Source: Escherichia phage phiA2-1
Length of the DNA stretch: 44,857 nucleotides
Direction: 5' to 3' (one strand)
Sequence record: OR861626.1
Numbering within the stretch: position 1 is the stretch's first letter; each line of letters begins with the position of its first letter. The notes beneath the pieces are model-generated. The model saw only the letters and a program-made list of their open reading frames with translations, was not told where the DNA came from and ran no database searches. Made by a program: the position numbers and the translations under genes. Positions 5,492-35,810 of this stretch are shown one piece after another.

Positions 5492-5882
5492 ATTATCATT
5501 GGCAGCAAGGGCATTCGTCGACGATTTGTTGGTAAATGAATTTCCGGTCAGATATCCAGTTGCTTGGGAGAACGCTGCCTTTGCGCCTCCTGCGGACGGC
5601 TCAATCTGGCTTAAGTACGACTACACAGAAGTTGACACAGTAACATACGGGTTAAGCAGGAAGTGCAAATACTACGTTGGCATGGTGCAGATTTCAGTGT
5701 TCTTCAGTCCGGGGACTGGGATTGATAAGCCGAGACAAATAGCTAATCAATTGGCAGAATCTATCGTTGATGGTACAATGCTTGACAGCGGGACCATTTA
5801 TGAGTCTGGAGTTGTTAACCCGGTTATCAAATCCAAGTCTGGGTGGTTTATCCCGGTTCGTTTTTATGTTCGTCTAGACTAA
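5481..5882 (+). CDS. Tail completion/terminator protein (putative)
   Basis: 133-aa ORF, GTG start with GAGGAGG RBS, directly before major tail protein. Confidence 0.3.
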   Translation: MQYELSLAARAFVDDLLVNEFPVRYPVAWENAAFAPPADGSIWLKYDYTEVDTVTYGLSRKCKYYVGMVQISVFFSPGTGIDKPRQIANQLAESIVDGTMLDSGTIYESGVVNPVIKSKSGWFIPVRFYVRLD

Positions 5883-5897
5883 CAAAAGGAAAAATAA

Positions 5898-6554
5898 ATG
5901 GCCCATCTCAGCAATGGCACGCAGGTCTTCGTAGAAGGCTCTCGCGGAGCTGCAATCGACGTAACTGCAATTTCTAACGCAGTTACCCCTGTTTTAACTG
6001 TATCTGACGCGTCTGGTTTGGTCGTTGGTGATTACCTGCTTTTCACCTCTTCTGCTTCAACGCTTCTAGCTGACAAGCAAGTTCGAGTGACTGCAATCAC
6101 TGGTACGTCAGTAACTGTTGAAGGTATTGATACCTCCAGCACCACAAAGTTCCCGGCTGGCTTAACTGGTGAAGTTGTCAAGATCACCTCCTGGTTCGAA
6201 GTTCCGTGCGTTCAGGACGTATCTACTGACGGTGGCGAACAGCAATTCGTTAACTTCCAGTGCTTGTCCGATGACCGTGAACAGCAGATTCCGACCTATA
6301 AATCTGCGGTAACTAACACCTTCACCTTCGCTCACGAGTACACCAACCCTGTATATCCGGTTCTGCGTAACTACGATGAGTCTGGCCAGGTTGTTGCGAT
6401 TCGTCTGTTCGTACCTCGAGCTAGCGAAATGCGCTTGCAGTCCGGCACTATCTCTTTCAACGACACCCCTACCATTGGTGTTAACGAAATCGAAACGGTA
6501 TCCATCGCAGTATCAATTCGTGGTCGCCTGTCCTCTGTGGCAGCTGAAGTTTAA
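5898..6554 (+). CDS. Major tail protein
   Basis: 218-aa ORF upstream of the chaperone and tape-measure genes; AAGGAAA RBS; strong terminator downstream. Confidence 0.5.
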   Translation: MAHLSNGTQVFVEGSRGAAIDVTAISNAVTPVLTVSDASGLVVGDYLLFTSSASTLLADKQVRVTAITGTSVTVEGIDTSSTTKFPAGLTGEVVKITSWFEVPCVQDVSTDGGEQQFVNFQCLSDDREQQIPTYKSAVTNTFTFAHEYTNPVYPVLRNYDESGQVVAIRLFVPRASEMRLQSGTISFNDTPTIGVNEIETVSIAVSIRGRLSSVAAEV

Positions 6555-6559
6555 AACAC

Positions 6560-6582
6560 AAACCCTCTTCGGAGGGTTTTTT
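6560..6582 (+). terminator. Rho-independent terminator
   Basis: AAACCCTC-TTCG-GAGGGTTT hairpin plus T-run. Confidence 0.55.
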
Positions 6583-6587
6583 ATTGC

Positions 6588-6650
6588 ATAGCACTTTTTG
6601 CTAAAGCACTTATTCAGCTTTACTGTATAGTTATCTCATCGAAACGAAAT
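6588..6650 (+). promoter_or_regulatory. Conserved promoter-like cassette (ATAGCAC-N4-TTGCTA box, 22-nt spacer, TATAGT, CATCGAAACGAAA leader)
   Basis: ATAGCACTTTTTGCTAAAG at 6588; TATAGT 22 nt after TTGCTA; ATCGAAACGAA at 6638..6648; ATG at 6665. Confidence 0.5.
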
Positions 6651-6664
6651 GAGAGATTAAAGAA

Positions 6665-6913
6665 ATGAATAACGTTAAAAACATCATCAAACTTGCTGCA
6701 GTTCTTGTTGCTTTTTATGCAGTAGTTCAGATTGTTAACCCAACTGGTGAGGCTGATGCCAATAGCAAGGCAAACAAATATACCGTTGAGTTCGCTAAAG
6801 CTGAGCGAGCATGTCAGGAGCTTGTGGGTAGTAAAGTTGACCAAATCATGAAATATGGCAAAGAGGTCTGCAAGGACTCAGCTGCTAAGATTGCAAAAGA
6901 AAACACTAAGTAA
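6665..6913 (+). CDS. Small secreted protein (signal peptide, no lipobox)
   Basis: 82-aa ORF; N-terminal hydrophobic segment KLAAVLVAFYAVVQIV; own promoter-like cassette upstream. Confidence 0.45.
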   Translation: MNNVKNIIKLAAVLVAFYAVVQIVNPTGEADANSKANKYTVEFAKAERACQELVGSKVDQIMKYGKEVCKDSAAKIAKENTK

Positions 6914-6952
6914 TAGAATACATACTCACAAACAATAAGAGGATTAACTAAG

Positions 6953-7267
6953 ATGGCTAAGTTCAAACTTTCACTGGCAGCACTCCCTGACTTCAAGCTT
7001 CCGGTAAAATTCAAGCTGGCTAACGACCAGGATGTAGAGGTTATCTTTACAGTCAAGCATAAGAAAACATCTGAGCTTCAGGAGCTTTTGCAGAAAGAAG
7101 ACTTGAGTACTAAAGAATTGATTATGGCAATCGCCTCTGATTGGGATTTGGAAGAAGAATACAACGAGGATAACGTTAATGAGTTCTCCGACCTGTTCCC
7201 AGCGTCAACGGTTGCACTGACTACCGCTTACATGCAGGCACTGGCAGGCCAGCGGGTAAAAAACTAA
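6953..7267 (+). CDS. Tail assembly chaperone (lambda G-like)
   Basis: 104-aa acidic ORF immediately before tape measure; downstream ORF in the -1 frame. Confidence 0.5.
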   Translation: MAKFKLSLAALPDFKLPVKFKLANDQDVEVIFTVKHKKTSELQELLQKEDLSTKELIMAIASDWDLEEEYNEDNVNEFSDLFPASTVALTTAYMQALAGQRVKN

Positions 7268-7587
7268 AGAGGGCGGTGTATCTACAGTACCAGTCAGATC
7301 CAACTGATGCCGAACTGGAAGCTATTGGGATGCGCCGCTCTGATTACGAAGATGAAGAGCCTGAAGTTTTACACTTCGACGACAACATGATGAAGGCTTG
7401 GGACATTTATTGTTCAATGGCCACGCAATGGAGGGTTGGAGCTAACGGAGCTACAGGGTTAGATTACAACGTGCTAAATTTCCTCTTTAGAGTGTATAAT
7501 GTCTCAGAAGAAGAATTGGTGCTCAGTGATTTACGCATCCTTGAAGCTAAGGCTCTCGAGATGATGGATAATCTGAGAAAAAAATAA
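7258..7587 (+). CDS. Tail assembly chaperone frameshift extension (lambda GT-like; expressed by -1 frameshift from 6953)
   Basis: Slippery heptamer A_AAA_AAC at 7258..7264 just before the G stop; -1 frame is open through to 7587. Confidence 0.4.
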   Translation, partial: KKLKRAVYLQYQSDPTDAELEAIGMRRSDYEDEEPEVLHFDDNMMKAWDIYCSMATQWRVGANGATGLDYNVLNFLFRVYNVSEEELVLSDLRILEAKALEMMDNLRKK

Positions 7588-7608
7588 CCCGCTTCGGCGG
7601 GTTTTCTA
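7588..7608 (+). terminator. Terminator-like hairpin
   Basis: CCCGC-TTCG-GCGGG plus TTTTCTATT; followed by GGAGG RBS of tape measure gene. Confidence 0.4.
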
Positions 7609-7622
7609 TTATGGAGGCTTAG

Positions 7623-10598
7623 ATGGCAACAAATGAATTAGCCGGAATCACACTAGCCGTAGACGTCTCGCAGGTAGACAGAGGTACACAGTCCCTGCGG
7701 AAGTTCAGGCAGGCAAACCAGCAGGCCGCTTCCGGCATTAGTGAGTTCGTCAACGCCGAGCAGGTTGCAAAGAATCAAGCCAGAGACACAGCTCGCGCAC
7801 TGGCTGAACAGCAATCATCTTTGGCTAAATTGCAAACGGCTATTGACCCAACTGCGGCAAAGTTCCGTAAACTCCAGGAGGCTGCTGTAGGTCTTGATAA
7901 GGCTTTCGCGGCTGGAGTAGTTCCTGATGAGGAGTTTTTCCGCTTAGGTGAGGCGCTTGAAACGCAGAACGCAAAACTTGCTCGTTCACGTGCGGCACTA
8001 ACTGAAGAGGGTAGAGCGGCGGCGCAAGCTGCAAAGGATAAGGCAAAGGCAAAGGCTGAAGCGGATAGATTCATTGCATCACTTGAGCGTCAGGCTCAGG
8101 CGGCAACATTGACGCGAGAGGAGTACCTAAAGTTACAAGCGGCCCAGCTTGGCGTAAGTTCTCAGGCGGCGCCTATTATTGACAGAATCGCCGATGCATC
8201 ACGGAAGGCAAACACCCAGCTAATTGCTCAGAGCAAGGCCTTTCAACGCTCTGGCTTAAGCGCAGGTCAATACAAGGCTGCAATCTCTCAATTGCCAGCG
8301 CAGATTACAGATATTGGGACATCACTTGCTGGCGGCATTCCGATTTGGCTTATTGCAATTCAGCAAGGTGGACAAATTAAGGATGCATTTGGAGGTATTG
8401 GTAACACATTTAGTTTTGCGCTTGCTGCTTTAAACCCGTTCAACGTAGCAGTTGGGGTTCTCGGTGGCGCGCTTGTTGCTTTAGGCGTCGGTGCTGCGCA
8501 GGCTGAAAGTGAATTCAGGGCGTTAAACTCCGCCATTGCGTTCTCAAACAACTCCACAATCGCATCAATCTCGCAGGTTAGAGAGTTGGTTAGCTCTGTT
8601 TCTGATGCCACTGGTGCAACCAGAGGACTTGTGACTAGCATCGCAACAAGCCTTGTTGAGCAAGGAAACCTTACGCTAACGCAGATTGACAAGATTACTA
8701 AATCAACAGCCAGATGGGCTCAGTTGACAGGTAAGGATGCAAAGGAAATTACTGGTTACTATAACCAGATTGCGAGCGACCCAATTCAAGGACTTGCTGA
8801 TTTAGACAAGAGGTTTAACTTCCTTACACAGGGGCAGTTAACAACAATTGAAAGATTGAGAGAGACTAGGGGTGAGGTTGAAGCCGTAACTGCTGCTATT
8901 GATATATTTAGCAAATCACAAGAGGCAAACCTTAACGATATTGCAGCCCAGCTTACTCCTCTTGAATTGGCCTGGAATGACTTCAGGAAGTACATATCTG
9001 ATGTATGGGATGCAATTAGTCGCAGAACGGTTGGGGCGCTAAACCTGTTTGTTGACGTAATCGCCGGAACAATTGAGCAAATTAGGGTCTTCATCAACCA
9101 GGGTGATGTGCTGATTGGTGAATTCGTAATTAGCGCAACACAGGCACTGCAGAACATCCCCGGCCTTGATGGTGTTGGTGATGATGTTGTCAAGGGACAG
9201 CAGAAGATTATCGATGCCGCTAAGAAGCAAAACATTGAGCTAGAGAAGTCTATCAAGGAGCGCGATGCCAGAATCAGAGAAGGAGAACTTGGCTACGTTA
9301 CTCGCAGAGAAAATCAGAATACCAATGAGCAGTCAGGCACGGATGAGGAGTTTGCAAAAAGGAAGAAAGCGCTTCAGGATGAACTTGATGCGATCAAGAA
9401 GAGCAGGAAAGAAGAAAATGGTAGGGTTAAAGAGCAAAGAGACCTTACAATTGGTTACGAATCTGGCGTACTTGCACTACAGGCACAACTCAAGGTGCTT
9501 CAGGAAAACAGGGATATTGGCGCAGTAATAAGCAATGAGCGCAAGCAGTATCTTCAGGAGGTTGCAAAATTCCAGATTCTTGAGCAAAGGCAGCGTGATG
9601 GCTCAATAAAAAAAGAGCAAGCAAGACTTCTCATTGAAAAGGATAAAGTTCTTGAGTTGGCCAGGCAGAAGGCTGAGCTAGGTGATCAGATTGTTTTGCA
9701 AGAAAGAGCCAATAAGTTGGCTGAAGATAACCGCAAGAAGATTCTTCAGATTAACAATGAGGCAAGCAATATTGATTTGGGTACTGGATTATCATCTCGT
9801 GAACTGCAAAGAGCCAAAGAGATTCAGGCTCTTCAGTCCAATCAGGTCAATGCTGGTGGCTCTCTTGATGACGTTGATTTTCAGCAGCTACTGGAAGCAA
9901 GACGTAACTTTTATGCCCAGGAGGATGCGCTACGTGAAAACTGGCTCGCTGGTGTTAATCAATCCTTTGCCAATTGGGCTGAGAGCGCGACGGATGCATT
10001 CTCAATTGCTGGAAGTTTAACCACAACAGTCTTTGAAGGCATTACCGACCAGATTACAAACCTCGTAACAACTGGCGAAACAAACTTCAGAGAGTTTACT
10101 GTTAGCATCCTTAAACAGATTGCTAAGATTGCAACTCAGCTTCTTGTTGTAAAGGCCATCGAATCTAGCTTAAGTAGCTTCGGTGGTACTGGTGGCGCTA
10201 TTGGATCGATTGCATCTGGCTTGGGTTTTGCTGGTGGCGGCTACACCGGCAATGGCGGCAAGTACCAACCGGCAGGAACGGTACACCGTGGTGAATTTGT
10301 ATTCACAAAAGAAGCGACGAGCCGAATTGGTGTGAAAAACCTTTACGCGCTAATGAAAGGTTACGCAAACGGCTGCGCTGTAGGTGGTCCTTCAGGCTAT
10401 GCAAATGGGGGTTTGGTTTCTGGTGGAACAGATGTTAATGTTAGCGGAATAACTGTTAACGTTAATGGCGGTGTTGGTAGCGACCCAGAACAAGCCAAAG
10501 CATTGCAGAGTGGCGTTAAGGCAATCGTAGCGGAAGAGATTGCTCAGTCCTTCCAGCAAGGAGGAAAAGCGTATGCCTATCTGAGAGGTTTTAACTAA
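7623..10598 (+). CDS. Tail tape measure protein
   Basis: 991-aa ORF; long Ala/Gln/Lys-rich coiled-coil regions; follows the G/GT chaperone pair. Confidence 0.75.
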   Translation: MATNELAGITLAVDVSQVDRGTQSLRKFRQANQQAASGISEFVNAEQVAKNQARDTARALAEQQSSLAKLQTAIDPTAAKFRKLQEAAVGLDKAFAAGVVPDEEFFRLGEALETQNAKLARSRAALTEEGRAAAQAAKDKAKAKAEADRFIASLERQAQAATLTREEYLKLQAAQLGVSSQAAPIIDRIADASRKANTQLIAQSKAFQRSGLSAGQYKAAISQLPAQITDIGTSLAGGIPIWLIAIQQGGQIKDAFGGIGNTFSFALAALNPFNVAVGVLGGALVALGVGAAQAESEFRALNSAIAFSNNSTIASISQVRELVSSVSDATGATRGLVTSIATSLVEQGNLTLTQIDKITKSTARWAQLTGKDAKEITGYYNQIASDPIQGLADLDKRFNFLTQGQLTTIERLRETRGEVEAVTAAIDIFSKSQEANLNDIAAQLTPLELAWNDFRKYISDVWDAISRRTVGALNLFVDVIAGTIEQIRVFINQGDVLIGEFVISATQALQNIPGLDGVGDDVVKGQQKIIDAAKKQNIELEKSIKERDARIREGELGYVTRRENQNTNEQSGTDEEFAKRKKALQDELDAIKKSRKEENGRVKEQRDLTIGYESGVLALQAQLKVLQENRDIGAVISNERKQYLQEVAKFQILEQRQRDGSIKKEQARLLIEKDKVLELARQKAELGDQIVLQERANKLAEDNRKKILQINNEASNIDLGTGLSSRELQRAKEIQALQSNQVNAGGSLDDVDFQQLLEARRNFYAQEDALRENWLAGVNQSFANWAESATDAFSIAGSLTTTVFEGITDQITNLVTTGETNFREFTVSILKQIAKIATQLLVVKAIESSLSSFGGTGGAIGSIASGLGFAGGGYTGNGGKYQPAGTVHRGEFVFTKEATSRIGVKNLYALMKGYANGCAVGGPSGYANGGLVSGGTDVNVSGITVNVNGGVGSDPEQAKALQSGVKAIVAEEIAQSFQQGGKAYAYLRGFN

Positions 10599-10650
10599 TA
10601 GCACTAAATGGTAAAGCCAAAAGGATTTGGCTTGCTACAATTAGTGAAAA
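10598..10650 (+). promoter_or_regulatory. Promoter-like cassette variant (ATAGCACTAAATGGTAAAG, 22 nt, TACAAT)
   Basis: Box overlaps tape measure stop; TACAAT at 22-nt spacing; hairpin GCCAAA-AGGA-TTTGGC in the spacer. Confidence 0.4.
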
Positions 10651-10669
10651 TTAACATGAGGTTTAAAAG

Positions 10670-11140
10670 ATGAACTGGAATTATGTTTTTGAGTATAGAG
10701 AGGGTGTTCTTTATTGGAAGGTAAAACCAGCCATACAATACAATATTGGCGATGTTGCTGGTTTCTTTTGTGAAAAGAGAGGTTACATAATCGTTCAATA
10801 CAGGCGTGTAAAGGTAATGGCCCATAGGGTTGTATGGGAAATGTTTAATGGAAGAATAGCTGATGACATGGAAATTGATCACATTGACCACTCTAGAAAA
10901 AACAACAACATATCAAACCTAAGACTGGTAACGAAGAGTGATAACATGAAAAACAAAAGCATGTACTCATCAAATAAAACTGGCGTTGTCGGGGTTAGTT
11001 ACTGCAAAACAAAGAAAAAATTTATATCAAAGATAGGTAAGAGAATTCTATTAACAACAAGCAATTTTGAAGAGGCTGTAAAAGCGAGAAAAATCGCAGA
11101 GATAGCCCTTAATTATCACAAAAATCACGGGAGTAAATAA
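10670..11140 (+). CDS. HNH homing endonuclease (HNH plus AP2-like DNA-binding region)
   Basis: Motifs HRVVWE, IDHIDH, NLRLV...N..N; AT-rich gene inserted between tape measure and tail protein M. Confidence 0.7.
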   Translation: MNWNYVFEYREGVLYWKVKPAIQYNIGDVAGFFCEKRGYIIVQYRRVKVMAHRVVWEMFNGRIADDMEIDHIDHSRKNNNISNLRLVTKSDNMKNKSMYSSNKTGVVGVSYCKTKKKFISKIGKRILLTTSNFEEAVKARKIAEIALNYHKNHGSK

Positions 11141-18574: not shown

Positions 18575-19368
18575 GTGATTATGGTGTTGAACTAATAAAT
18601 GACTATGGTTTAAAGGTTGCTGACGCAGAGGATGTAAATTACGTACTAAGAAGTTCTGGTACATTTAATGATTCAAATTTCTACTCATATGCAAACTCCA
18701 CATCTGCAATTAGCCTCATGACCACAGGAATGAATTCGCCTCTTCTATTTCTAAAGATGAACGAAAGTAGGTCAAGGATAAGCCAGAAGCCTGGAGTTAA
18801 CAAAATATCACCTGATTTTGTTAACCCAAATACCACAATAACAAAGACAAGCATAGACCTATTCAAGTGGTGGAACATACCGCTAGGAACTGTAGAGTAT
18901 TACATATTTGACAAGTGGATCCCGCCAGAAAGAAGTGATTATGGAATGCAGATATTTAATGAATCTGGTTCTATAATCTTTGATTCTGGCTGGTACTTCC
19001 TCAAACTTAGGGATGTGCTATGGCTTGATCCAAGTTATCCAAACCATTCAGATCAGGAAGGTGGTAGTAACTGGACTAACGTCGGGAATATTGTCAACTC
19101 CGCGAACGTATCAAACTCAGCATTATCAATGCCTGTTGGTAGGGGGTGGGTTGAAACATCATTGCAGGGTGGGTACTACTATAATGAATGCTGTCACCTT
19201 GACTCATCCGGTAATCTATTTATATCCATAATACCTACAGGTATATACCTTGATGTTTCACCAACTGGCGGCTGGGTTGGCAATATGAGGACGCAAGTTA
19301 TGGTTTGCGACACCTCGAGGCTGCCTCTTAATTACAATCCAGTTGAGATAAGAAAGGAAAACAAATAA
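18571..19368 (+). CDS. Hypothetical protein, Asn/Ser/Gly/Trp/Tyr-rich (tail-associated by position)
   Basis: 265-aa ORF, last gene of the plus-strand late block. Confidence 0.3.
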   Translation: MSDYGVELINDYGLKVADAEDVNYVLRSSGTFNDSNFYSYANSTSAISLMTTGMNSPLLFLKMNESRSRISQKPGVNKISPDFVNPNTTITKTSIDLFKWWNIPLGTVEYYIFDKWIPPERSDYGMQIFNESGSIIFDSGWYFLKLRDVLWLDPSYPNHSDQEGGSNWTNVGNIVNSANVSNSALSMPVGRGWVETSLQGGYYYNECCHLDSSGNLFISIIPTGIYLDVSPTGGWVGNMRTQVMVCDTSRLPLNYNPVEIRKENK

Positions 19369-19390
19369 AAATAAGGCCCTTAATGGGCCT
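19362..19390. terminator. Bidirectional terminator-like hairpin
   Basis: AAGGCCC-TTAAT-GGGCCTT between convergent genes. Confidence 0.4.
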
Positions 19391-19565
19391 TCTTGTTAAA
19401 ACAATATCCAGCTGGTAAAACCGAATAAAGATTTTGATTTACCTCTCCATTGCTGTATTCACAACCTCTAATTGTAACTGAGTAGTCACTGATAAGAACT
19501 ATAGTTCTTTCACCGCCTGAACAACCAGCTAAAATCATTGCAGTGATAACGATTAATTTTTTCAT
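19380..19565 (-). CDS. Small outer-membrane lipoprotein, Cor-like superinfection-exclusion candidate
   Basis: 61 aa; lipoprotein signal MKKLIVITAMILAGC (lipobox LAGC); last gene of a minus-strand operon. Confidence 0.45.
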   Translation of the reverse strand: MKKLIVITAMILAGCSGGERTIVLISDYSVTIRGCEYSNGEVNQNLYSVLPAGYCFNKKAH

Positions 19566-19566
19566 C

Positions 19567-19671
19567 TTAGAACCCTTTAAAGTTGCTAGCCAGCATCAGA
19601 AGCCATACGAAGAAACCAGTAGCTGCTACACCGAAGATTGCAGAGATTACGTTAGTAGTTAAGTTAGTCAT
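19567..19671 (-). CDS. Small hydrophobic membrane peptide (34 aa), not in ORF track
   Basis: Hand translation MTNLTTNVISAIFGVAATGFFVWLLMLASNFKGF; AAGGAA RBS; stop 1 nt before the lipoprotein ATG. Confidence 0.3.
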   Translation of the reverse strand: MTNLTTNVISAIFGVAATGFFVWLLMLASNFKGF

Positions 19672-24949: not shown

Positions 24950-25012
24950 TGTAAGGTCTCCATTTGTAAAATAGCACAATTTGCTAAAACTAATTCTACC
25001 ATCTTTAATGCA

Positions 25013-25036
25013 ATAAAAAACCTCCCGAAGGAGGTT
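25013..25036 (-). terminator. Rho-independent terminator (minus strand) after the primase-like gene
   Basis: ACCTCC-CGAA-GGAGGT hairpin with A-run on plus strand (U-run on minus). Confidence 0.45.
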
Positions 25037-25958
25037 AGTTTATTAAGTCGTTGGCTTTGTACACTTTCTTGCGTATGCCTGTTTTAAATGACTTACCGTC
25101 ATTGGGAATCACCACATCAACATTGCGATCGTCAGCAACAGCAAGGATATCGATATCATAATCATGGCAAGCAATTCTGAACTTCCTTGACTTGTCGCGG
25201 TGTATAACCATCTCCATATTGTAACAGGAGAAAGCAACAAACACCTCGCGACCCCCAGTAGCAAGGTGAACACGTACGCCATCAATATAATTGTCAACAA
25301 CATAAGTATAACTATTGTCCTGCCTAGAACCAATGACAGCAACAGAATCACGAGTATAATCACCAGCAAGGAACTTAACATTTGAATCCTCATCAATAAA
25401 CATTACGTTACAGAACTCATCACCAAGCCCATCCTCATAAACCATGGAGCAAGGCACGGCATGAATCATTGAACCATCTTTAGCTATACCAACATCAAAA
25501 CCAGATTCAGAGTATATACCCTCATATGTCGTGAGTGGACTTGAGTCAACTCGCTGAGTTCTCCCCATGACCTCCAAAACTTTTTCATGGTCTACTTGAG
25601 CGCCCATCTTATAACGATGAGTTCTGGATGCTTGCTTGTTTGCTTTAACTATAACCTCAATTGGTGTTAAGTTCAGCCAGTCACCAAGCAAATTTACTGA
25701 ATCGGCGAAGGACGATCCAGTGCACTTCATGACCCATCCTATACCGGAGTCACTTCCGCATTTCGAACAAACTGCCGCGCCATTTCCTTTTTCACTGCCT
25801 ATTTCGTCGGTAAATCTGAATCTGTCAGTGCCAAAGCAGTATGGGCATGGTCCGTGCTTCTTACTTAGGTGTCTATCATTCCAACCAAGTTCCTTTGCAT
25901 AAAATGATTTCCACAATCCGGCCATCTTAGGTATAACTTCATTCTTATCGTAATTCAT
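25035..25958 (-). CDS. DNA primase-like protein (zinc-ribbon plus TOPRIM-like region)
   Basis: CPYC...CSKCG zinc-binding motif; acidic AVADDRNVD segment; located in replication block. Confidence 0.45.
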   Translation of the reverse strand: MNYDKNEVIPKMAGLWKSFYAKELGWNDRHLSKKHGPCPYCFGTDRFRFTDEIGSEKGNGAAVCSKCGSDSGIGWVMKCTGSSFADSVNLLGDWLNLTPIEVIVKANKQASRTHRYKMGAQVDHEKVLEVMGRTQRVDSSPLTTYEGIYSESGFDVGIAKDGSMIHAVPCSMVYEDGLGDEFCNVMFIDEDSNVKFLAGDYTRDSVAVIGSRQDNSYTYVVDNYIDGVRVHLATGGREVFVAFSCYNMEMVIHRDKSRKFRIACHDYDIDILAVADDRNVDVVIPNDGKSFKTGIRKKVYKANDLIN

Positions 25959-26486: not shown

Positions 26487-26960
26487 TTAATCTTTAGCTT
26501 TTCGTGCTGCCTCGTTAGCAATCTTATTCTTGCGCCATGGTCGACATGATGGCTTAGTTGCTAGTTCGGCTTCGGTAACTACGCGAAGCATATGGCGTTT
26601 CTTGCATCGAAGTGTTAGCGGCTTTCCATTCCCGTCGAATTGCAAGTCAGGTCGGCAGAATGTAGCTCGAAAACCTTCCTTATTTCGCTTGTACGCATTG
26701 TGAGCTTTCTGCGCACCTCGAGCTGAAATCATGCCGCGATCAAACCACTGCTCTACAGTCTGGTGAGATACATTTAACTGTTTTGCGATGTTCGCCTTTG
26801 TGCCGTAGAAATCAAGAACCATCTCCAGACGTGCCCTGAGGCCAGCCCTCACCTCATCCTTTAATACGTAGTAACCTGAAGGTCGTTTGCGCTGCTTCTT
26901 GTCTTGTGTGCGTACCGTTCCGTTATTACCGTTAATTGTTCTCTTGTCAATTTCACACAT
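26487..26960 (-). CDS. Putative HTH DNA-binding protein
   Basis: 157 aa, basic; HTH-like segment TKANIAKQLNVSHQTVEQWFDRG. Confidence 0.4.
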   Translation of the reverse strand: MCEIDKRTINGNNGTVRTQDKKQRKRPSGYYVLKDEVRAGLRARLEMVLDFYGTKANIAKQLNVSHQTVEQWFDRGMISARGAQKAHNAYKRNKEGFRATFCRPDLQFDGNGKPLTLRCKKRHMLRVVTEAELATKPSCRPWRKNKIANEAARKAKD

Positions 26961-32056: not shown

Positions 32057-32116
32057 TAGCACTTTTTGTCAAAACATAGCGACTAAAAGTCGCTATTATT
32101 GTTTTATCGAAACGAG
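32056..32116 (+). promoter_or_regulatory. Promoter-like cassette containing a perfect 9-bp-arm palindrome in the spacer
   Basis: ATAGCACTTTTTGTCAAAA, 22 nt (includes ATAGCGACT-AAA-AGTCGCTAT), TATTAT, ATCGAAACGAG leader. Confidence 0.5.
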
Positions 32117-32134
32117 ATGAGAGAGGAAAACAAA

Positions 32135-32275
32135 ATGATTCTAATTGGTATACTGACCGCTTTTTTCTATTATGCTACAGGTCTAACCTTTTTGATGTCC
32201 TTAGGTGCAGCCATAGGTACTTACTTCGTATCTGCTTTACTTGCCTTAATCGTGGGGGCACTGCGCAATCGCTAA
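32135..32275 (+). CDS. Small hydrophobic membrane peptide (46 aa), not in ORF track
   Basis: Hand translation MILIGILTAFFYYATGLTFLMSLGAAIGTYFVSALLALIVGALRNR; GAGAGAGG RBS-like leader. Confidence 0.3.
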   Translation: MILIGILTAFFYYATGLTFLMSLGAAIGTYFVSALLALIVGALRNR

Positions 32276-32792: not shown

Positions 32793-33008
32793 ATGAGGGA
32801 AGTACTTAACGCTGCTACGGCATCAACTGGCGGGGCAGCTGTAACTGGCGCCGCAACTGGTCAAATGACCATCGCAATAATCAGTATTATAGCTCTTGTC
32901 GTTTTTGGGTTATGGGGCGCTTACTGGAAGTTTAAGGATAGCCAGGCAATTAGACGGGCGCTTGAATCAGGAGACCTAAAGAAGGCAATAAAGATAAGGA
33001 GTAAGTAA
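32793..33008 (+). CDS. Holin (pinholin-like)
   Basis: 71 aa; Gly/Ala-rich weak TM segment then strong TM (MTIAIISIIALVVFGLWGAYW); charged C-terminus; directly before endolysin. Confidence 0.6.
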   Translation: MREVLNAATASTGGAAVTGAATGQMTIAIISIIALVVFGLWGAYWKFKDSQAIRRALESGDLKKAIKIRSK

Positions 33009-33493
33009 TGAAGCAGAAGCTTGTGATTAGTGCAGCGACGGCAGCGGCAATATACATCGCAGCGCCGATTATTGAGCTTGTTGAAGGTGTTGAGTACAGG
33101 CCTTATAAGGATATAGCAGGGGTGTGGACAATTTGCAGTGGGATAACTGGCCCAGACGTTATTATCGGAAAGACATACACAAAATCAGAGTGTAGGAGAT
33201 TGTTAGAAAAGCACATTCAGATTCACGGAAAGTATGTGCAGGATGCAGTTACCTATCCAATAGCACCAGAAACAATGGCGGCTTTAATCAGCTTTAGCTA
33301 CAACGTTGGCGGTTCCGCGATGAGGAAGTCAACGGCTGTCAGGTTGATTAACCAGGGTAAGATTGAGGAAGGATGCAAGGCTCTCGGGATGTGGAATAAA
33401 GCTATGGTTAATGGCAAGCTGAAGGTTATCAAGGGCCTAGCAAACAGGCGTAACGAGGAAATCAAATTATGCTTAAGCGGGGTGGGTAAATGA
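33008..33493 (+). CDS. SAR endolysin (T4-lysozyme-like muramidase)
   Basis: N-terminal Ala/Ile-rich SAR-like segment; catalytic-type spacing E-x8-D-x5-T (ELVEGVEYRPYKDIAGVWT). Confidence 0.7.
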   Translation: MKQKLVISAATAAAIYIAAPIIELVEGVEYRPYKDIAGVWTICSGITGPDVIIGKTYTKSECRRLLEKHIQIHGKYVQDAVTYPIAPETMAALISFSYNVGGSAMRKSTAVRLINQGKIEEGCKALGMWNKAMVNGKLKVIKGLANRRNEEIKLCLSGVGK

Positions 33494-33876
33494 GGGCTGT
33501 GGTAATTGCTGCGGTAATTCTGCTTTCCGGCTGTTCGGCAACATCTGCACTGACCGGGTTAATTGGCAGCAAACCGGAGATAAGTGCTCAGGCAGGTGCG
33601 GAGAATAACAAGGTTGGCGTTGGCCTGACTAACAAGGTTGATTCAAGTTCCAGCGCAAAGGCTGAAGTGAAGAACTCAAAGGTTGACACCCTTGATAGCT
33701 CGAGCGGAAAGAAGACTGCTGACAACTCAATCAAAGCGTCAACAATCACGGCAGAGAAGATTGAAATCACCAATAATGATTCGTCTGCCATACCGTGGAT
33801 TGGAAGCGGAATCATGTTGTGCATCATCATCATTCTGCTTTTAGTTATATTCAGGAAAAACAAAAAAGCCCCGTAA
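33490..33876 (+). CDS. Unimolecular spanin (lipoprotein signal plus C-terminal TMD)
   Basis: Lipobox LLSGC at N-terminus; C-terminal TM IMLCIIIILLLVIF; last gene of lysis cassette. Confidence 0.6.
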   Translation: MRAVVIAAVILLSGCSATSALTGLIGSKPEISAQAGAENNKVGVGLTNKVDSSSSAKAEVKNSKVDTLDSSSGKKTADNSIKASTITAEKIEITNNDSSAIPWIGSGIMLCIIIILLLVIFRKNKKAP

Positions 33877-34226: not shown

Positions 34227-35810
34227 TCACCCCAACAGTCGTGGATTAATGTAAATCTTATCGCCAATCAGGCACGTATAGTTTTTCTCATCAAGCATCG
34301 GAACCAAGTGGTCTTTTATGCGAGTCATGACTCCAGCCTGAGCTTCGAAAGGCTTAACCTTGCGCGCTGCTTCATATAATGAGCGAATACCAACAACGCC
34401 CTTCCCATTCTTGCCCTGCTTAATCAGGATATCAACCAGCTTGTTCATCTCCGCATTGTCACCAGCATGACCAGCAGCACTAGCAGATGACAAATACGTC
34501 TTGCTTAGTTCGTGGAAAATCATAACCGCTTCCTGCATTGTCTCAAGTTCAATCTCTCTGGACTTCTGAGGACTCGACCCGGCTGGCGCGAACCAGTTGC
34601 GAATAACATGCAGAACAGAAGCGATACGAATTGCTTGCTTATCAAACTTACCTAGCGCACCACGTAACATTGTGTGGGAATACTTACCGCCATCACCAAG
34701 ATGCGGCTCCATCTCCTGACGAGCGCGGTTGAGGTAACGCATGGATGACGCACTTACAGTCAGTTTCACTTCAACTTCATTCATAATCTCATGAACGAGC
34801 CGGAAGTAATCAGCCTTCAACCCACCATCAATAGCCTCATAGGTTGAATCTCCATTCTCATCAACAAACACACGGTCGCCAAGGAATGACTTTTCACGCA
34901 CCAGAAGAAAACGTTCAGATACACCAATACCACGCGCACCAGCATTCATAATAGCATTGATTGTTTCATCCTGAGCAATTACAGAAATACATCCCATAGC
35001 CACAAAACTCATGTTGTTTTCTGCGTTAGCGCGCGCAATAGATACGTTACCAGCATCCCACGCCTTAAGCACTAGCTCGCTGTTCGTTTTCTTTGAGCCA
35101 TCTCCGTATGTCATGCCAAGCAGTGAGTTTACGCTTGTTGCCTCATCCGAGATTACAGCAAAGTTTCCCTGTCGGTTGTTTATTCGCGCAAGACCTTCCG
35201 GCGTAGTATCGGAGACCGGGAATACTATATCGCATAGCTTCTCGAGCTTTTCCTCTAAATCCTCCTTCTCTTCAAATAGTGATGCCATCTCAGAAGGTGA
35301 CTTCTCCTGCTTCATCTCTTTTGATAGAGCGGATAGCTTAGCCATAATCTTTTTGCGGTCACGCTTGCGCACTTCATTCAACCGCTCAGTCTCAGCGATC
35401 ATTGGCGCAATAGATAGTGAGTTGATGGCAGATTTACCAGTTGAGGGAGGCTGGCTTGTTACAACGTACAAAGATGTTGGCTGCTGAGTTCCATGATATT
35501 CAACCGTAAAGCGCCCAAGCATTGCAGCAGACACGCAACCCAGAAAGTGCATGTAAGCTGAAGACTCTGGAAACTGAACTGAACGAGCAATATTGGCAGA
35601 TAGCTTACCAACGATATCAATGTCATTACCTAATGATATGACAGGATACTTGTCATTACCTGCATCAATCTCGACAGGTGTTTTCCAGAATGATTGTGAT
35701 TGTCGATAACCATTTGCATTAATGGCCACGCGCAGGGGTGGGAGGTTGTCATTGGCGGCAATTGCCATAACCTGTTCAACAGATAGTTTATCTTCGTTGA
35801 AATCAAACAT
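34227..35810 (-). CDS. P-loop NTPase, putative replicative helicase
   Basis: 527 aa; Walker A-like SQPPSTGKSA; N- and C-termini repeated in the truncated paralog at 38698. Confidence 0.45.
   Translation of the reverse strand: MFDFNEDKLSVEQVMAIAANDNLPPLRVAINANGYRQSQSFWKTPVEIDAGNDKYPVISLGNDIDIVGKLSANIARSVQFPESSAYMHFLGCVSAAMLGRFTVEYHGTQQPTSLYVVTSQPPSTGKSAINSLSIAPMIAETERLNEVRKRDRKKIMAKLSALSKEMKQEKSPSEMASLFEEKEDLEEKLEKLCDIVFPVSDTTPEGLARINNRQGNFAVISDEATSVNSLLGMTYGDGSKKTNSELVLKAWDAGNVSIARANAENNMSFVAMGCISVIAQDETINAIMNAGARGIGVSERFLLVREKSFLGDRVFVDENGDSTYEAIDGGLKADYFRLVHEIMNEVEVKLTVSASSMRYLNRARQEMEPHLGDGGKYSHTMLRGALGKFDKQAIRIASVLHVIRNWFAPAGSSPQKSREIELETMQEAVMIFHELSKTYLSSASAAGHAGDNAEMNKLVDILIKQGKNGKGVVGIRSLYEAARKVKPFEAQAGVMTRIKDHLVPMLDEKNYTCLIGDKIYINPRLLG

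What the first reader, a model, noticed from the sequence alone, without database searches (positions are those of the whole stretch)
6588..6913. Secreted small protein with its own promoter-like cassette inside the tail morphogenesis operon
An 82-aa ORF with a cleavable-type signal peptide sits between the major tail protein terminator and the tail chaperone gene, preceded by a full cassette. That layout is moron-like: an independently transcribed periplasmic protein in a structural operon, possibly involved in exclusion or envelope modification.
Basis: partly seen in the sequence, partly recalled or inferred. Interest (0 to 1): 0.4.

Follow-up and report, generated by a model that had tools for sequence, protein, structure and literature searches.

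The report
Swappable exported-protein gene in tail operon
A real 82-residue exported protein of unknown function sits in a swappable slot of a T1-like coliphage's tail operon; it is an accessory gene whose variant tracks the type of tape-measure protein, so it may block DNA injection by rival phages.

Summary
The window is an Rtp-like virulent coliphage (Drexlerviridae, Braunvirinae). ORF 6665..6913 (82 aa) lies between the major-tail-gene terminator and the tail chaperone genes. It is under purifying selection and has a Sec-type N-terminus: published SignalP is positive on the identical protein, an A-x-A site is conserved, and the mature part has two invariant Cys. The upstream "cassette" is the known but uncharacterised Drexlerviridae 21-nt repeat (aaATAGCACnnnTTGnTAAAA). 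It occurs about 17 times in the window, nearly always 19 nt before a -10-like hexamer.

The gene is accessory. T1 and Rogunavirinae lack it. In Rtp, MM01, AugustePiccard, RobRod40 and TR1 the same slot, with the same terminator and cassette, holds an unrelated lipoprotein (rtp34). The gene diverges far faster than its neighbours, has lower GC, and has no homologue outside Braunvirinae. It is not a classical moron: no terminator follows it, so it should be co-transcribed with the chaperone genes.

Its function is untested. The slot allele co-varies with a replaced central segment of the tape-measure protein, across at least three genetic backgrounds. This suggests an HK97-gp15-like, injection-stage superinfection exclusion role, which is an inference. 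Interest is moderate.

The parts
6560..6585 (+). Intrinsic terminator after the major tail protein gene (8-bp stem, GC-rich, T-run).
   Evidence: Invariant in all aligned relatives, including those with a different slot gene.
6586..6606 (+). 21-nt Drexlerviridae direct repeat (GCATAGCACTTTTTGCTAAAG). It contains the palindrome TAGCA-N5-TGCTA, centred about 42 nt upstream of the predicted start.
   Evidence: about 17 copies in the window. Same element as the TLS repeat aaATAGCACnnnTTGnTAAAA, whose function is unknown (PMC11447400). Conserved across divergent relatives while the following 15-nt spacer varies.
6626..6631 (+). -10-like hexamer TATAGT, 19 nt after the repeat.
   Evidence: 16 of 17 cassette copies have a TAnnnT/CATAAT-type hexamer at this fixed distance. 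Promoter activity is inferred, not shown.
6637..6649 (+). Conserved CATCGAAACGAAA at the predicted transcription start / 5' leader. A GAGAG Shine-Dalgarno-like motif follows at 6651-6655.
   Evidence: shared by at least 7 cassette copies in the window and by T1 copies.
6665..6760 (+). Codons 1-32: Sec-type signal peptide or membrane anchor (MNNVKNIIKLAAVLVAFYAVVQIVNPTGEADA). The predicted SPase I site is A32|N33.
   Evidence: SignalP 4.1 and TMHMM positive for the identical MSK_000011. Unusually conserved: 79-93% identity versus 44-74% for the rest.
6761..6913 (+). Mature 50-residue basic domain, predicted as two helices, with invariant C50 and C69, plus the stop codon.
   Evidence: AF2: helices 30-54 and 57-81, pLDDT about 70-77 in this part. 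Both Cys are invariant in all homologues.
6953..7587 (+). Tail assembly chaperone genes G (6953..7267) and T (7276..7587). Predicted to be co-transcribed with ORF82, with a terminator at 7586..7603.
   Evidence: No terminator between 6913 and 6953.
8467..9437 (+). Central segment of the tape measure gene (about aa 282-605 of 991). It is non-homologous in phages that carry the lipoprotein allele in the slot.
   Evidence: co-varies with the slot allele, while G, T and the TMP ends stay homologous.

Best explanation
ORF82 is a non-structural accessory gene in an exchangeable slot between the major tail gene and the tail chaperone genes of Braunvirinae phages. Transcription is predicted to start about 27 nt upstream of the ATG, from the phage's own repeated promoter type (a 21-nt repeat plus a -10 hexamer), and to run on into the chaperone genes. 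The product is exported by Sec. Either it is cleaved after Ala32 to release a 50-residue basic, disulphide-bonded helical hairpin into the periplasm, or it stays anchored in the inner membrane by its conserved N-terminal helix with that hairpin in the periplasm. The most likely role is to act in the envelope of the infected cell on the tape-measure-dependent step of genome entry, excluding superinfecting relatives with the same tape-measure type. This would work like HK97 gp15 without being homologous to it. Shown here: the gene is real, its sequence features indicate export, it is accessory and its allele is exchangeable, and the allele co-varies with the tape-measure centre. Inferred: promoter activity, signal-peptide cleavage, the disulphide, and the exclusion mechanism.
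For: Real gene. Export: plus published SignalP/TMHMM on the identical protein; two invariant Cys sit in the exported part. Accessory and exchangeable: T1 and Rogue1-type phages join the major tail gene directly to the chaperone gene. Rtp, MM01, AugustePiccard, RobRod40 and TR1 carry an unrelated lipobox lipoprotein in the same slot, behind the same terminator and cassette. CY1 has an extra small membrane-protein gene in the slot, copied from the unit at window 32059..32275. ORF82 is 48-57% identical where the major tail protein is 90-96% and G is 69-96%. Its GC is 40.2% against 45-50% in the neighbours. The family forms a single 50%-identity cluster among 1.8 billion representatives. Link to the tape measure: homology between the window and AugustePiccard or Rtp breaks exactly at the ORF and again at TMP aa ~282-605, with G, T and the TMP ends homologous. 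The six records with an Rtp-type TMP centre are exactly the six with the lipoprotein allele. The ORF82 set (81 records) matches the window-type TMP-centre set (82 records) in size. The G gene between the two segments follows genus background, not slot allele, so the pairing recurs in at least three backgrounds. Not receptor-level: ORF82 is 100% identical in OzMSK/MSK (LptD) and 98.8% identical in IME253, whose reported receptor is FepA. A separate cassette-driven lipoprotein lies beside the receptor-binding genes. Precedents: HK97 gp15 is a small envelope protein encoded in the tail operon next to the tape-measure gene, and it blocks genome entry depending on the incoming tail (PMC3594210). 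Lambda TMP residues around 300-400 set the inner-membrane entry route (PMC13190303).
Against: There is no experimental datum on ORF82. The co-variation could be hitch-hiking of two segments only 1.5 kb apart, and it rests on few independent events. At fine scale the two do not track each other: the ACG-M12 group has ORF82 at about 48-54% identity but a TMP centre at 96%, and TR1's lipoprotein is 31% identical to rtp34 with a TMP centre at 95%. The N-terminal segment is more conserved than the mature part, which is the opposite of ordinary signal peptides, so cleavage is uncertain. The AF2 model has modest confidence (pLDDT 65.7), and in an ideal hairpin C50 and C69 would not face each other. 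No downstream terminator exists, and the cassette's promoter function is unproven.
Confidence: 0.4

Rival explanations
1. ORF82 is an accessory exported or membrane protein with some other envelope role unrelated to the tape measure. Examples are tuning lysis timing (an antiholin-like signal-anchor protein such as T4 RI), protecting the envelope, or countering a periplasmic or membrane host defence. On this view the co-variation with the tape-measure centre is linkage.
For: The export features and accessory status are the same as above. The N-terminal helix is Ala/Gly-rich with Tyr and Gln, and it is strongly conserved, as expected for a functional membrane segment. The phage has a SAR endolysin and a small holin according to the OzMSK annotation. 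The fine-scale mismatch between ORF82 and TMP divergence weakens the tape-measure link.
Against: The lysis cassette (holin, endolysin, u-spanin) is complete elsewhere, at 32793..33876. The alternative allele is an outer-membrane-type lipoprotein, which is hard to reconcile with an antiholin role. There is no hit in Pfam, NCBIfam or PADLOC. The exact match between the allele sets and the TMP-centre sets across different G-gene backgrounds is unexplained by this view.
Confidence: 0.3
2. The cassette is simply the restart promoter of the chaperone/tape-measure transcription module, as in T1 'transcriptons'. ORF82 is a passenger gene with little or no selected function beyond filling the slot.
For: No terminator separates ORF82 from G/T. 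Rogue1 has a plain extended -10 promoter at the same junction. T1 late genes are described as modules flanked by terminators.
Against: dN/dS is 0.08-0.31, with invariant Cys and a conserved export signal across 81 records. Slot-less relatives lack the forward-oriented repeat at this junction, so the cassette and the gene look like one inserted unit.
Confidence: 0.15
3. ORF82 is a tail assembly factor or minor virion protein.
For: Its position inside the tail morphogenesis cluster, next to the chaperone genes.
Against: It has a Sec-type signal. It is absent from T1 and Rogunavirinae. It is replaced by an unrelated lipoprotein in phages whose major tail, G and T proteins are 93-100% identical. 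It diverges much faster than the structural neighbours.
Confidence: 0.04

Closest known systems
HK97 gp15 moron (injection-stage superinfection exclusion protein; Cumby et al. 2012, summarised in PMC3594210)
   Same: A small envelope-targeted protein encoded as an extra gene inside the tail operon, beside the chaperone and tape-measure genes. Its activity depends on the incoming phage's tail rather than on the surface receptor. ORF82's allele likewise tracks the tape-measure centre, not the receptor.
   Different: No sequence relationship: no YebO or other Pfam hit. The host phage is virulent, not temperate. There is no downstream terminator. The location is before the chaperone genes rather than after them. 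ORF82 probably has a cleavable signal and a periplasmic domain. Its function is untested.
Rtp34-type lipoprotein (rtp34 of phage Rtp and homologues in MM01, AugustePiccard, RobRod40, TR1)
   Same: It occupies exactly the same slot, behind the same terminator and the same repeat/-10/leader cassette. It is also exported and also of unknown function.
   Different: Unrelated sequence (pairwise E 0.15). It is 126-128 aa with a lipobox (LAGC/LTGC) and Asn at +2, so it is probably an outer-membrane lipoprotein. It is paired with the other tape-measure centre type.
Receptor-blocking exclusion lipoproteins: T5 Llp, T1/phi80/N15 Cor, Rtp45 (LptDE-Rtp45 structure, bioRxiv 10.1101/2025.07.07.663478)
   Same: Small exported proteins of virulent or temperate siphophages that act in the envelope of the infected cell.
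   Different: Those are lipoproteins encoded next to the receptor-binding protein gene, and they are specific for one receptor. ORF82 has no lipobox, lies 11 kb from the receptor-binding locus, and is identical in phages using LptD and near-identical in one reported to use FepA. The window has its own candidate of this class at 19380..19565.
Drexlerviridae 21-nt direct repeat aaATAGCACnnnTTGnTAAAA (TLS reannotation, PMC11447400)
   Same: The element at 6586..6606 is a copy. It lies 77 nt before the ATG, matching the reported distance of about 76 nt.
   Different: The paper leaves its role open (stoperator, enhancer site or UP element). Here it is seen to pair with a -10-like hexamer at a fixed 19 nt, and often with a conserved CATCGAAACGAAA leader. 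That points to a promoter in which the repeat replaces the -35 element. This is an inference.

Membership tests
PHROG 22925 (unknown function) | Full-length profile match | tested here: met
   E 1.3e-55, residues 1-82 against profile positions 1-82 of 82.
Sec/SPase I secretory signal peptide | Positively charged n-region, 10-15-residue hydrophobic h-region, helix breaker, and small residues at -3/-1 | tested here: met
   K5 and K9; L10-V24 (mean Kyte-Doolittle score 2.55); P26/G28; A30-D31-A32|N33. A rule-compatible site is present in 21 of 21 homologues. SignalP 4.1 is positive for the identical MSK_000011.
Sec/SPase I secretory signal peptide | Actual cleavage and periplasmic location | not testable with these tools
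   TMHMM also calls the segment a transmembrane helix, and it is more conserved than the mature part. An uncleaved signal anchor is therefore not excluded.
Moron (Juhala et al. 2000 sense, as summarised in PMC3594210) | Extra gene between two genes that are adjacent in related phages | tested here: met
   The major tail gene and chaperone gene are adjacent in T1, Rogue1, AHP42 and JK06.
Moron (Juhala et al. 2000 sense, as summarised in PMC3594210) | Own promoter | tested here: inconclusive
   A repeated cassette with a -10-like hexamer is present, but it is not a canonical sigma-70 match and its activity has never been measured.
Moron (Juhala et al. 2000 sense, as summarised in PMC3594210) | Own downstream terminator (insulated unit) | tested here: not met
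   There is no + strand terminator between 6913 and 6953; the next one is at 7586.
Moron (Juhala et al. 2000 sense, as summarised in PMC3594210) | Base composition differing from the neighbours | tested here: met
   GC 40.2% (GC3 37.3%), against 49.8% for the major tail gene and 44.8% (GC3 52.4%) for G.
Moron (Juhala et al. 2000 sense, as summarised in PMC3594210) | Expression from a repressed prophage | tested here: not met
   The phage family is virulent (Drexlerviridae), so there is no prophage state to express from.
HK97 gp15 / YebO family | Sequence homology to YebO-like proteins | tested here: not met
   The Pfam scan at E up to 1 returned no family. The exhaustive HMM search found only the protein's own cluster.
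HK97 gp15 / YebO family | Blocks genome entry in a tail/tape-measure-dependent way | not testable with these tools
   Only indirect support: the slot allele co-varies with the tape-measure centre.
Cor/Llp/Rtp45-type exclusion lipoproteins | Lipobox with an acylated Cys; gene adjacent to the receptor-binding protein gene | tested here: not met
   There is no Cys in residues 1-49. The gene lies 11 kb from the receptor-binding locus. A separate lipobox ORF lies there, at 19380..19565.

The most novel reading that the evidence does not exclude
The slot between the major tail gene and the chaperone genes of Braunvirinae encodes interchangeable 'injection locks'. These would be unrelated exported proteins (the ORF82 hairpin or the Rtp34 lipoprotein), each matched to one type of tape-measure central segment. 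Together they would define exclusion groups among virulent T1-like phages at the periplasm/inner-membrane step of genome entry. The shared 21-nt-repeat promoter cassettes would serve as the recombination joints that move such genes around.
Probability: 0.3. Interest if true: 0.65.

Novelty: new member of a known kind. Interest (0 to 1): 0.45.

Why it matters
If the tape-measure link is functional, the pair ORF82/Rtp34 would be a ready-made, genetically tractable system. BASEL phages Bas01 and Bas02 carry the two alleles. It could be used to study how siphophage tape-measure proteins cross the periplasm and inner membrane, and how virulent phages exclude relatives after adsorption. This step is currently known mainly from HK97 gp15, P22 SieA and T4 Imm/Sp. 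It would also matter for designing phage cocktails, because phages sharing a slot/tape-measure type could exclude each other. Separately, the fixed pairing of the Drexlerviridae 21-nt repeat with a -10 hexamer offers a concrete, testable explanation for why these phages seem to have almost no canonical promoters.

Tried and rejected
- Canonical sigma-70 promoter upstream of ORF82: none. The consensus scan gave nothing between 6580 and 6664, and the TTGCTA-to-TATAGT spacer is 22 nt.
- Protein family assignment: no significant hits for ORF82 in Pfam, NCBIfam or PADLOC. The PHROG hit to 'valyl tRNA synthetase modifier' at E 0.03 was judged noise.
- Remote homology: the word-indexed search found 39 relatives, all close. 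The exhaustive profile search of 1.8 billion representatives found only the protein's own cluster plus one spurious 869-aa hit at E 2e-4.
- Structure: the AF2 model is three helices at pLDDT 65.7. Foldseek found nothing below E 0.9 in PDB or BFVD, only generic helical hairpins.
- Paralogues or mimicry: tblastn of ORF82, its mature part and rtp34 against the window, Rtp and T1 found none.
- IMG/VR scan: only 4 loci, all close relatives.
- Literature: I found no transcriptome or TSS map for Drexlerviridae and no virion proteome covering this gene. The O157 T1-like proteomics (PMC4070988) concerns Rogunavirinae, which lack the gene.
- Hypotheses considered and rejected:
  - A receptor-blocking exclusion protein: no lipobox, not receptor-linked, and a dedicated candidate lies elsewhere.
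  - A tail component.
  - A chance ORF.
- Not done: direct sequence comparison with T4 Sp, Imm, RI or HK97 gp15, beyond the absence of Pfam hits.

Full report
**Identity of the window.** The region 5800-7700 is 99.8% identical to Escherichia phage vB_EcoS-IME253 (Rtpvirus, Braunvirinae, Drexlerviridae) and 95% identical to MSK/OzMSK. The local gene order is as follows:
- tail terminator;
- major tail protein, 5898..6554 (PF08813);
- intrinsic terminator, 6560..6579 plus T-run;
- the 82-aa ORF, 6665..6913;
- chaperone G, 6953..7267 (PF08748);
- chaperone T, 7276..7587 (DUF1799);
- terminator, 7586..7603;
- tape measure protein, 7623..10598.

**The ORF is a real gene.**
- It matches PHROG 22925 (unknown function) over its full length at E 1e-55.
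- It is found in 81 phage records, all Braunvirinae-like, down to 51-57% identity.
- Pairwise dN/dS is 0.08-0.31.
- No Pfam, NCBIfam or PADLOC family matches it.
- An exhaustive profile search of 1.8 billion cluster representatives returns only its own cluster. It is therefore an ORFan family confined to this phage subfamily.

**Export signal.**
- The N-terminus has two lysines (K5, K9), a 15-residue hydrophobic core (L10-V24), Pro26/Gly28 and A30-D31-A32|N33.
- All 21 homologues inspected keep at least one site that satisfies the (-3,-1) rule just after the conserved NPT motif.
- The MSK genome paper reports SignalP 4.1 and TMHMM positives for MSK_000011. Its supplementary table places that gene at 5578-5826 with 82 aa, and tblastn shows it is 100% identical to the window ORF.
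- The 50-residue remainder is basic and is predicted as two helices (AF2, pLDDT about 70-77 there, 65.7 overall). It carries two Cys that are invariant in every homologue, which fits an oxidising compartment.
- One oddity: residues 1-28 are far more conserved (79-93% identity) than residues 29-82 (44-74%), and they also show fewer synonymous changes. Ordinary signal peptides behave the other way. The segment may therefore persist as a functional membrane anchor, or the 5' end may be constrained at the RNA or recombination level. I cannot decide between cleavage and anchoring.

**The cassette.**
- An alignment of the intergenic region from divergent relatives shows three conserved blocks separated by a variable 15-nt spacer: ATAGCACTTTTTGYTAAAG, CTGTATAGTT and TCATCGAAACGAAATGAGAG.
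- The first block recurs in the window far above chance: 12 matches with up to 3 mismatches, against 1.6 expected.
- A PWM finds about 17 copies: 6591+, 10601+, 19752-, 20977-, 22637+, 24974+, 26507-, 26976+, 29467+, 30149+, 32059+, 35881-, 36472-, 37518-, 39210+, 40080+ and 40651+. Sixteen of them are followed at 18-19 nt by a TATAGT/TATTAT/CATAAT-type hexamer, and many by CATCGAAACGAAA.
- T1 has the same elements.
- This is the 21-nt direct repeat aaATAGCACnnnTTGnTAAAA described for TLS. It was noted there also in T1, Rtp and Rogue1, lies about 76 nt before start codons, and its function is still open (PMC11447400). Here the distance is 77 nt.
- It is not a canonical sigma-70 promoter: the TTGCTA-to-(-10) spacer is 22 nt, and the consensus scan misses it.
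- The repeat contains the palindrome TAGCA-N5-TGCTA, centred about 42 nt upstream of the predicted start. I read it as a promoter in which a factor-binding site replaces the -35 element. This is an inference.
- All other strong copies head non-structural units or inserted genes. These include the HNH endonuclease at 10670..11140, a lipobox ORF next to the receptor-binding genes, and a 46-aa membrane protein at 32134..32275.

**Not an insulated unit.** No + strand terminator lies between the ORF's stop codon and chaperone gene G. A transcript starting at the cassette should therefore also cover G and T. At the same junction Rogue1 has a plain extended -10 promoter and no ORF. T1 has no ORF and carries one copy of the repeat in the opposite orientation.

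**Accessory, exchangeable slot.**
- Rogunavirinae and T1 lack the gene.
- In Rtp (rtp34), MM01, AugustePiccard and RobRod40, the same terminator, repeat, -10 hexamer and leader precede an unrelated 128-aa protein with a lipobox (MKVIIAIMATLLLAGC|N...). TR1 has a 31%-identical homologue of it.
- In CY1 the slot additionally holds a copy of the 46-aa membrane-protein gene, together with the -10 and leader of the window's 32059 cassette. This indicates that the shared repeats act as recombination joints.
- ORF82 is 48% identical between the window and ACG-M12, where the major tail protein and G are 96% identical.
- Its GC is 40.2% (GC3 37.3%), against 45-50% around it.
- These are moron-like properties. 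However, a defining feature of classical morons (a downstream terminator) is absent, and there is no prophage state.

**Link to the tape measure protein.**
- BLAST of the window against AugustePiccard and Rtp shows homology up to the ORF's start codon, then a break over the ORF. Homology resumes through G, T and the first ~280 codons of the tape measure gene, breaks again at window 8467..9437 (aa ~282-605), and resumes to the end.
- The six records with an Rtp-type centre (at least 89% identity) are exactly the six with the lipoprotein allele.
- Records with a window-type centre (82 at 60% identity or more) match the ORF82 set (81) in number.
- The G gene between the two variable segments groups by genus, not by slot allele. 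AugustePiccard's G is 95.6% identical to that of ORF82-bearing EC3a. TR1's G is 90-92% identical to those of ORF82-bearing CY1 and AN_ECEAS, but only 71% to Rtp's. The pairing therefore recurs in at least three backgrounds.
- Caveats: the segments are only 1.5 kb apart, independent events are few, and divergence within each allele class does not track the tape measure.

**Not receptor-level.** ORF82 is 100% identical in OzMSK/MSK, which use LptD. It is 98.8% identical in IME253, for which FepA is reported. Both slot alleles occur among LptD phages: Rtp and AugustePiccard carry the lipoprotein, while JeanPiccard and OzMSK carry ORF82. The known receptor-level exclusion factor of this group, Rtp45, is a lipoprotein beside the receptor-binding gene. 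The window has a comparable lipobox ORF at 19380..19565, also behind a cassette.

**Mechanism proposed.** The closest functional precedent is HK97 gp15. It is a small envelope protein encoded as an extra gene in the tail operon beside the tape-measure gene. It blocks genome entry without touching the receptor, and its action depends on the incoming phage's tail (PMC3594210). In lambda, tape-measure residues around 300-400 decide which inner-membrane route is used (PMC13190303). The window's tape measure is lambda-H-like (PF06791, PF09718). I therefore propose that ORF82, once exported, interferes with the tape-measure-dependent crossing of the periplasm or inner membrane by superinfecting phages of the same tape-measure type, and that Rtp34 does the same for the other type.
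- I put about 0.85 on 'accessory exported envelope protein in an exchangeable slot'.
- I put about 0.35-0.4 on the exclusion mechanism.
- Rivals are another envelope role with the co-variation due to linkage (0.3), a passenger gene behind a restart promoter (0.15), and a tail component (below 0.05).

**Verdict.** The protein is a new, narrowly distributed family filling a known kind of niche. The tape-measure co-variation and the promoter-like architecture of the family-wide repeat are the two points worth an experiment.

Noticed in passing
window, about 17 sites (e.g. 19752-, 22637+, 26976+, 29467+, 32059+, 36472-, 37518-, 40080+): The Drexlerviridae 21-nt repeat ATAGCACnnnTTGYTAAA is followed at a fixed 18-19 nt by a -10-like hexamer in 16 of 17 copies, and often by CATCGAAACGAAA at the predicted +1. 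It contains the palindrome TAGCA-N5-TGCTA, centred near -42. It looks like the phage's main promoter type, with a factor site in place of the -35 element. The literature leaves its role open (PMC11447400).
   Followed up: partly
window 26487..26960 (-): A 157-aa helix-turn-helix regulator (homologue of T1 gp23 / Rtp52, with weak Cro/CI-type Pfam hits). It is transcribed divergently from the helicase gene, and cassette copies lie at 26507- and 26976+. It is a candidate binder of the repeat's palindrome.
   Followed up: no
window 10601..11140 (+): An HNH endonuclease gene (PF13392) with its own, weaker cassette copy is inserted between the tape measure gene and the tail-tip gene. It is absent at this position in OzMSK. 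GC is 34.8%.
   Followed up: partly
L006/L020 (phage CY1), between the major tail gene and the ORF82 homologue; window 32059..32275: CY1 carries in the slot an extra 46-aa double-hydrophobic membrane protein gene, with the -10 and leader of the window's 32059 cassette. This implies cassette-mediated shuffling of small membrane-protein genes.
   Followed up: partly
window 8467..9437 (tape measure aa ~282-605): The central third of the tape measure is non-homologous between Rtp-type phages (about 921 aa) and window-type phages (about 991 aa), while both ends are conserved. The replaced part begins around the lambda-H position 300-400 region that sets ManYZ dependence in lambda.
   Followed up: partly
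L009 (T1) 18797..18871 and about 15085: T1 has copies of the repeat in reverse orientation inside the late region. One lies between the major tail terminator and the chaperone gene, with a TAAGAT hexamer 19 nt away that points back into the bidirectional terminator. This may be a short antisense transcript or a bare binding site.
   Followed up: no
window 19380..19671 (-): A cassette-driven pair lies next to the receptor-binding genes: a 34-aa hydrophobic peptide, and a 61-aa lipobox protein (MKKLIVITAMILAGC...). The latter is a likely Cor/Llp/Rtp45-type receptor-level exclusion lipoprotein.
   Followed up: no
window 24974..25050 (+): A repeat copy with only a weak -10 (TGCAAT) runs straight into a hairpin with no ORF, in a region whose genes are on the opposite strand. 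T1 has the same arrangement at 34903. Its purpose is unknown.
   Followed up: no
P0036: A truncated ORF82 homologue is labelled as a Nitratidesulfovibrio liaohensis protein in NCBI. It sits on a 46.7-kb contig, which is probably a contaminating coliphage genome in that assembly.
   Followed up: no
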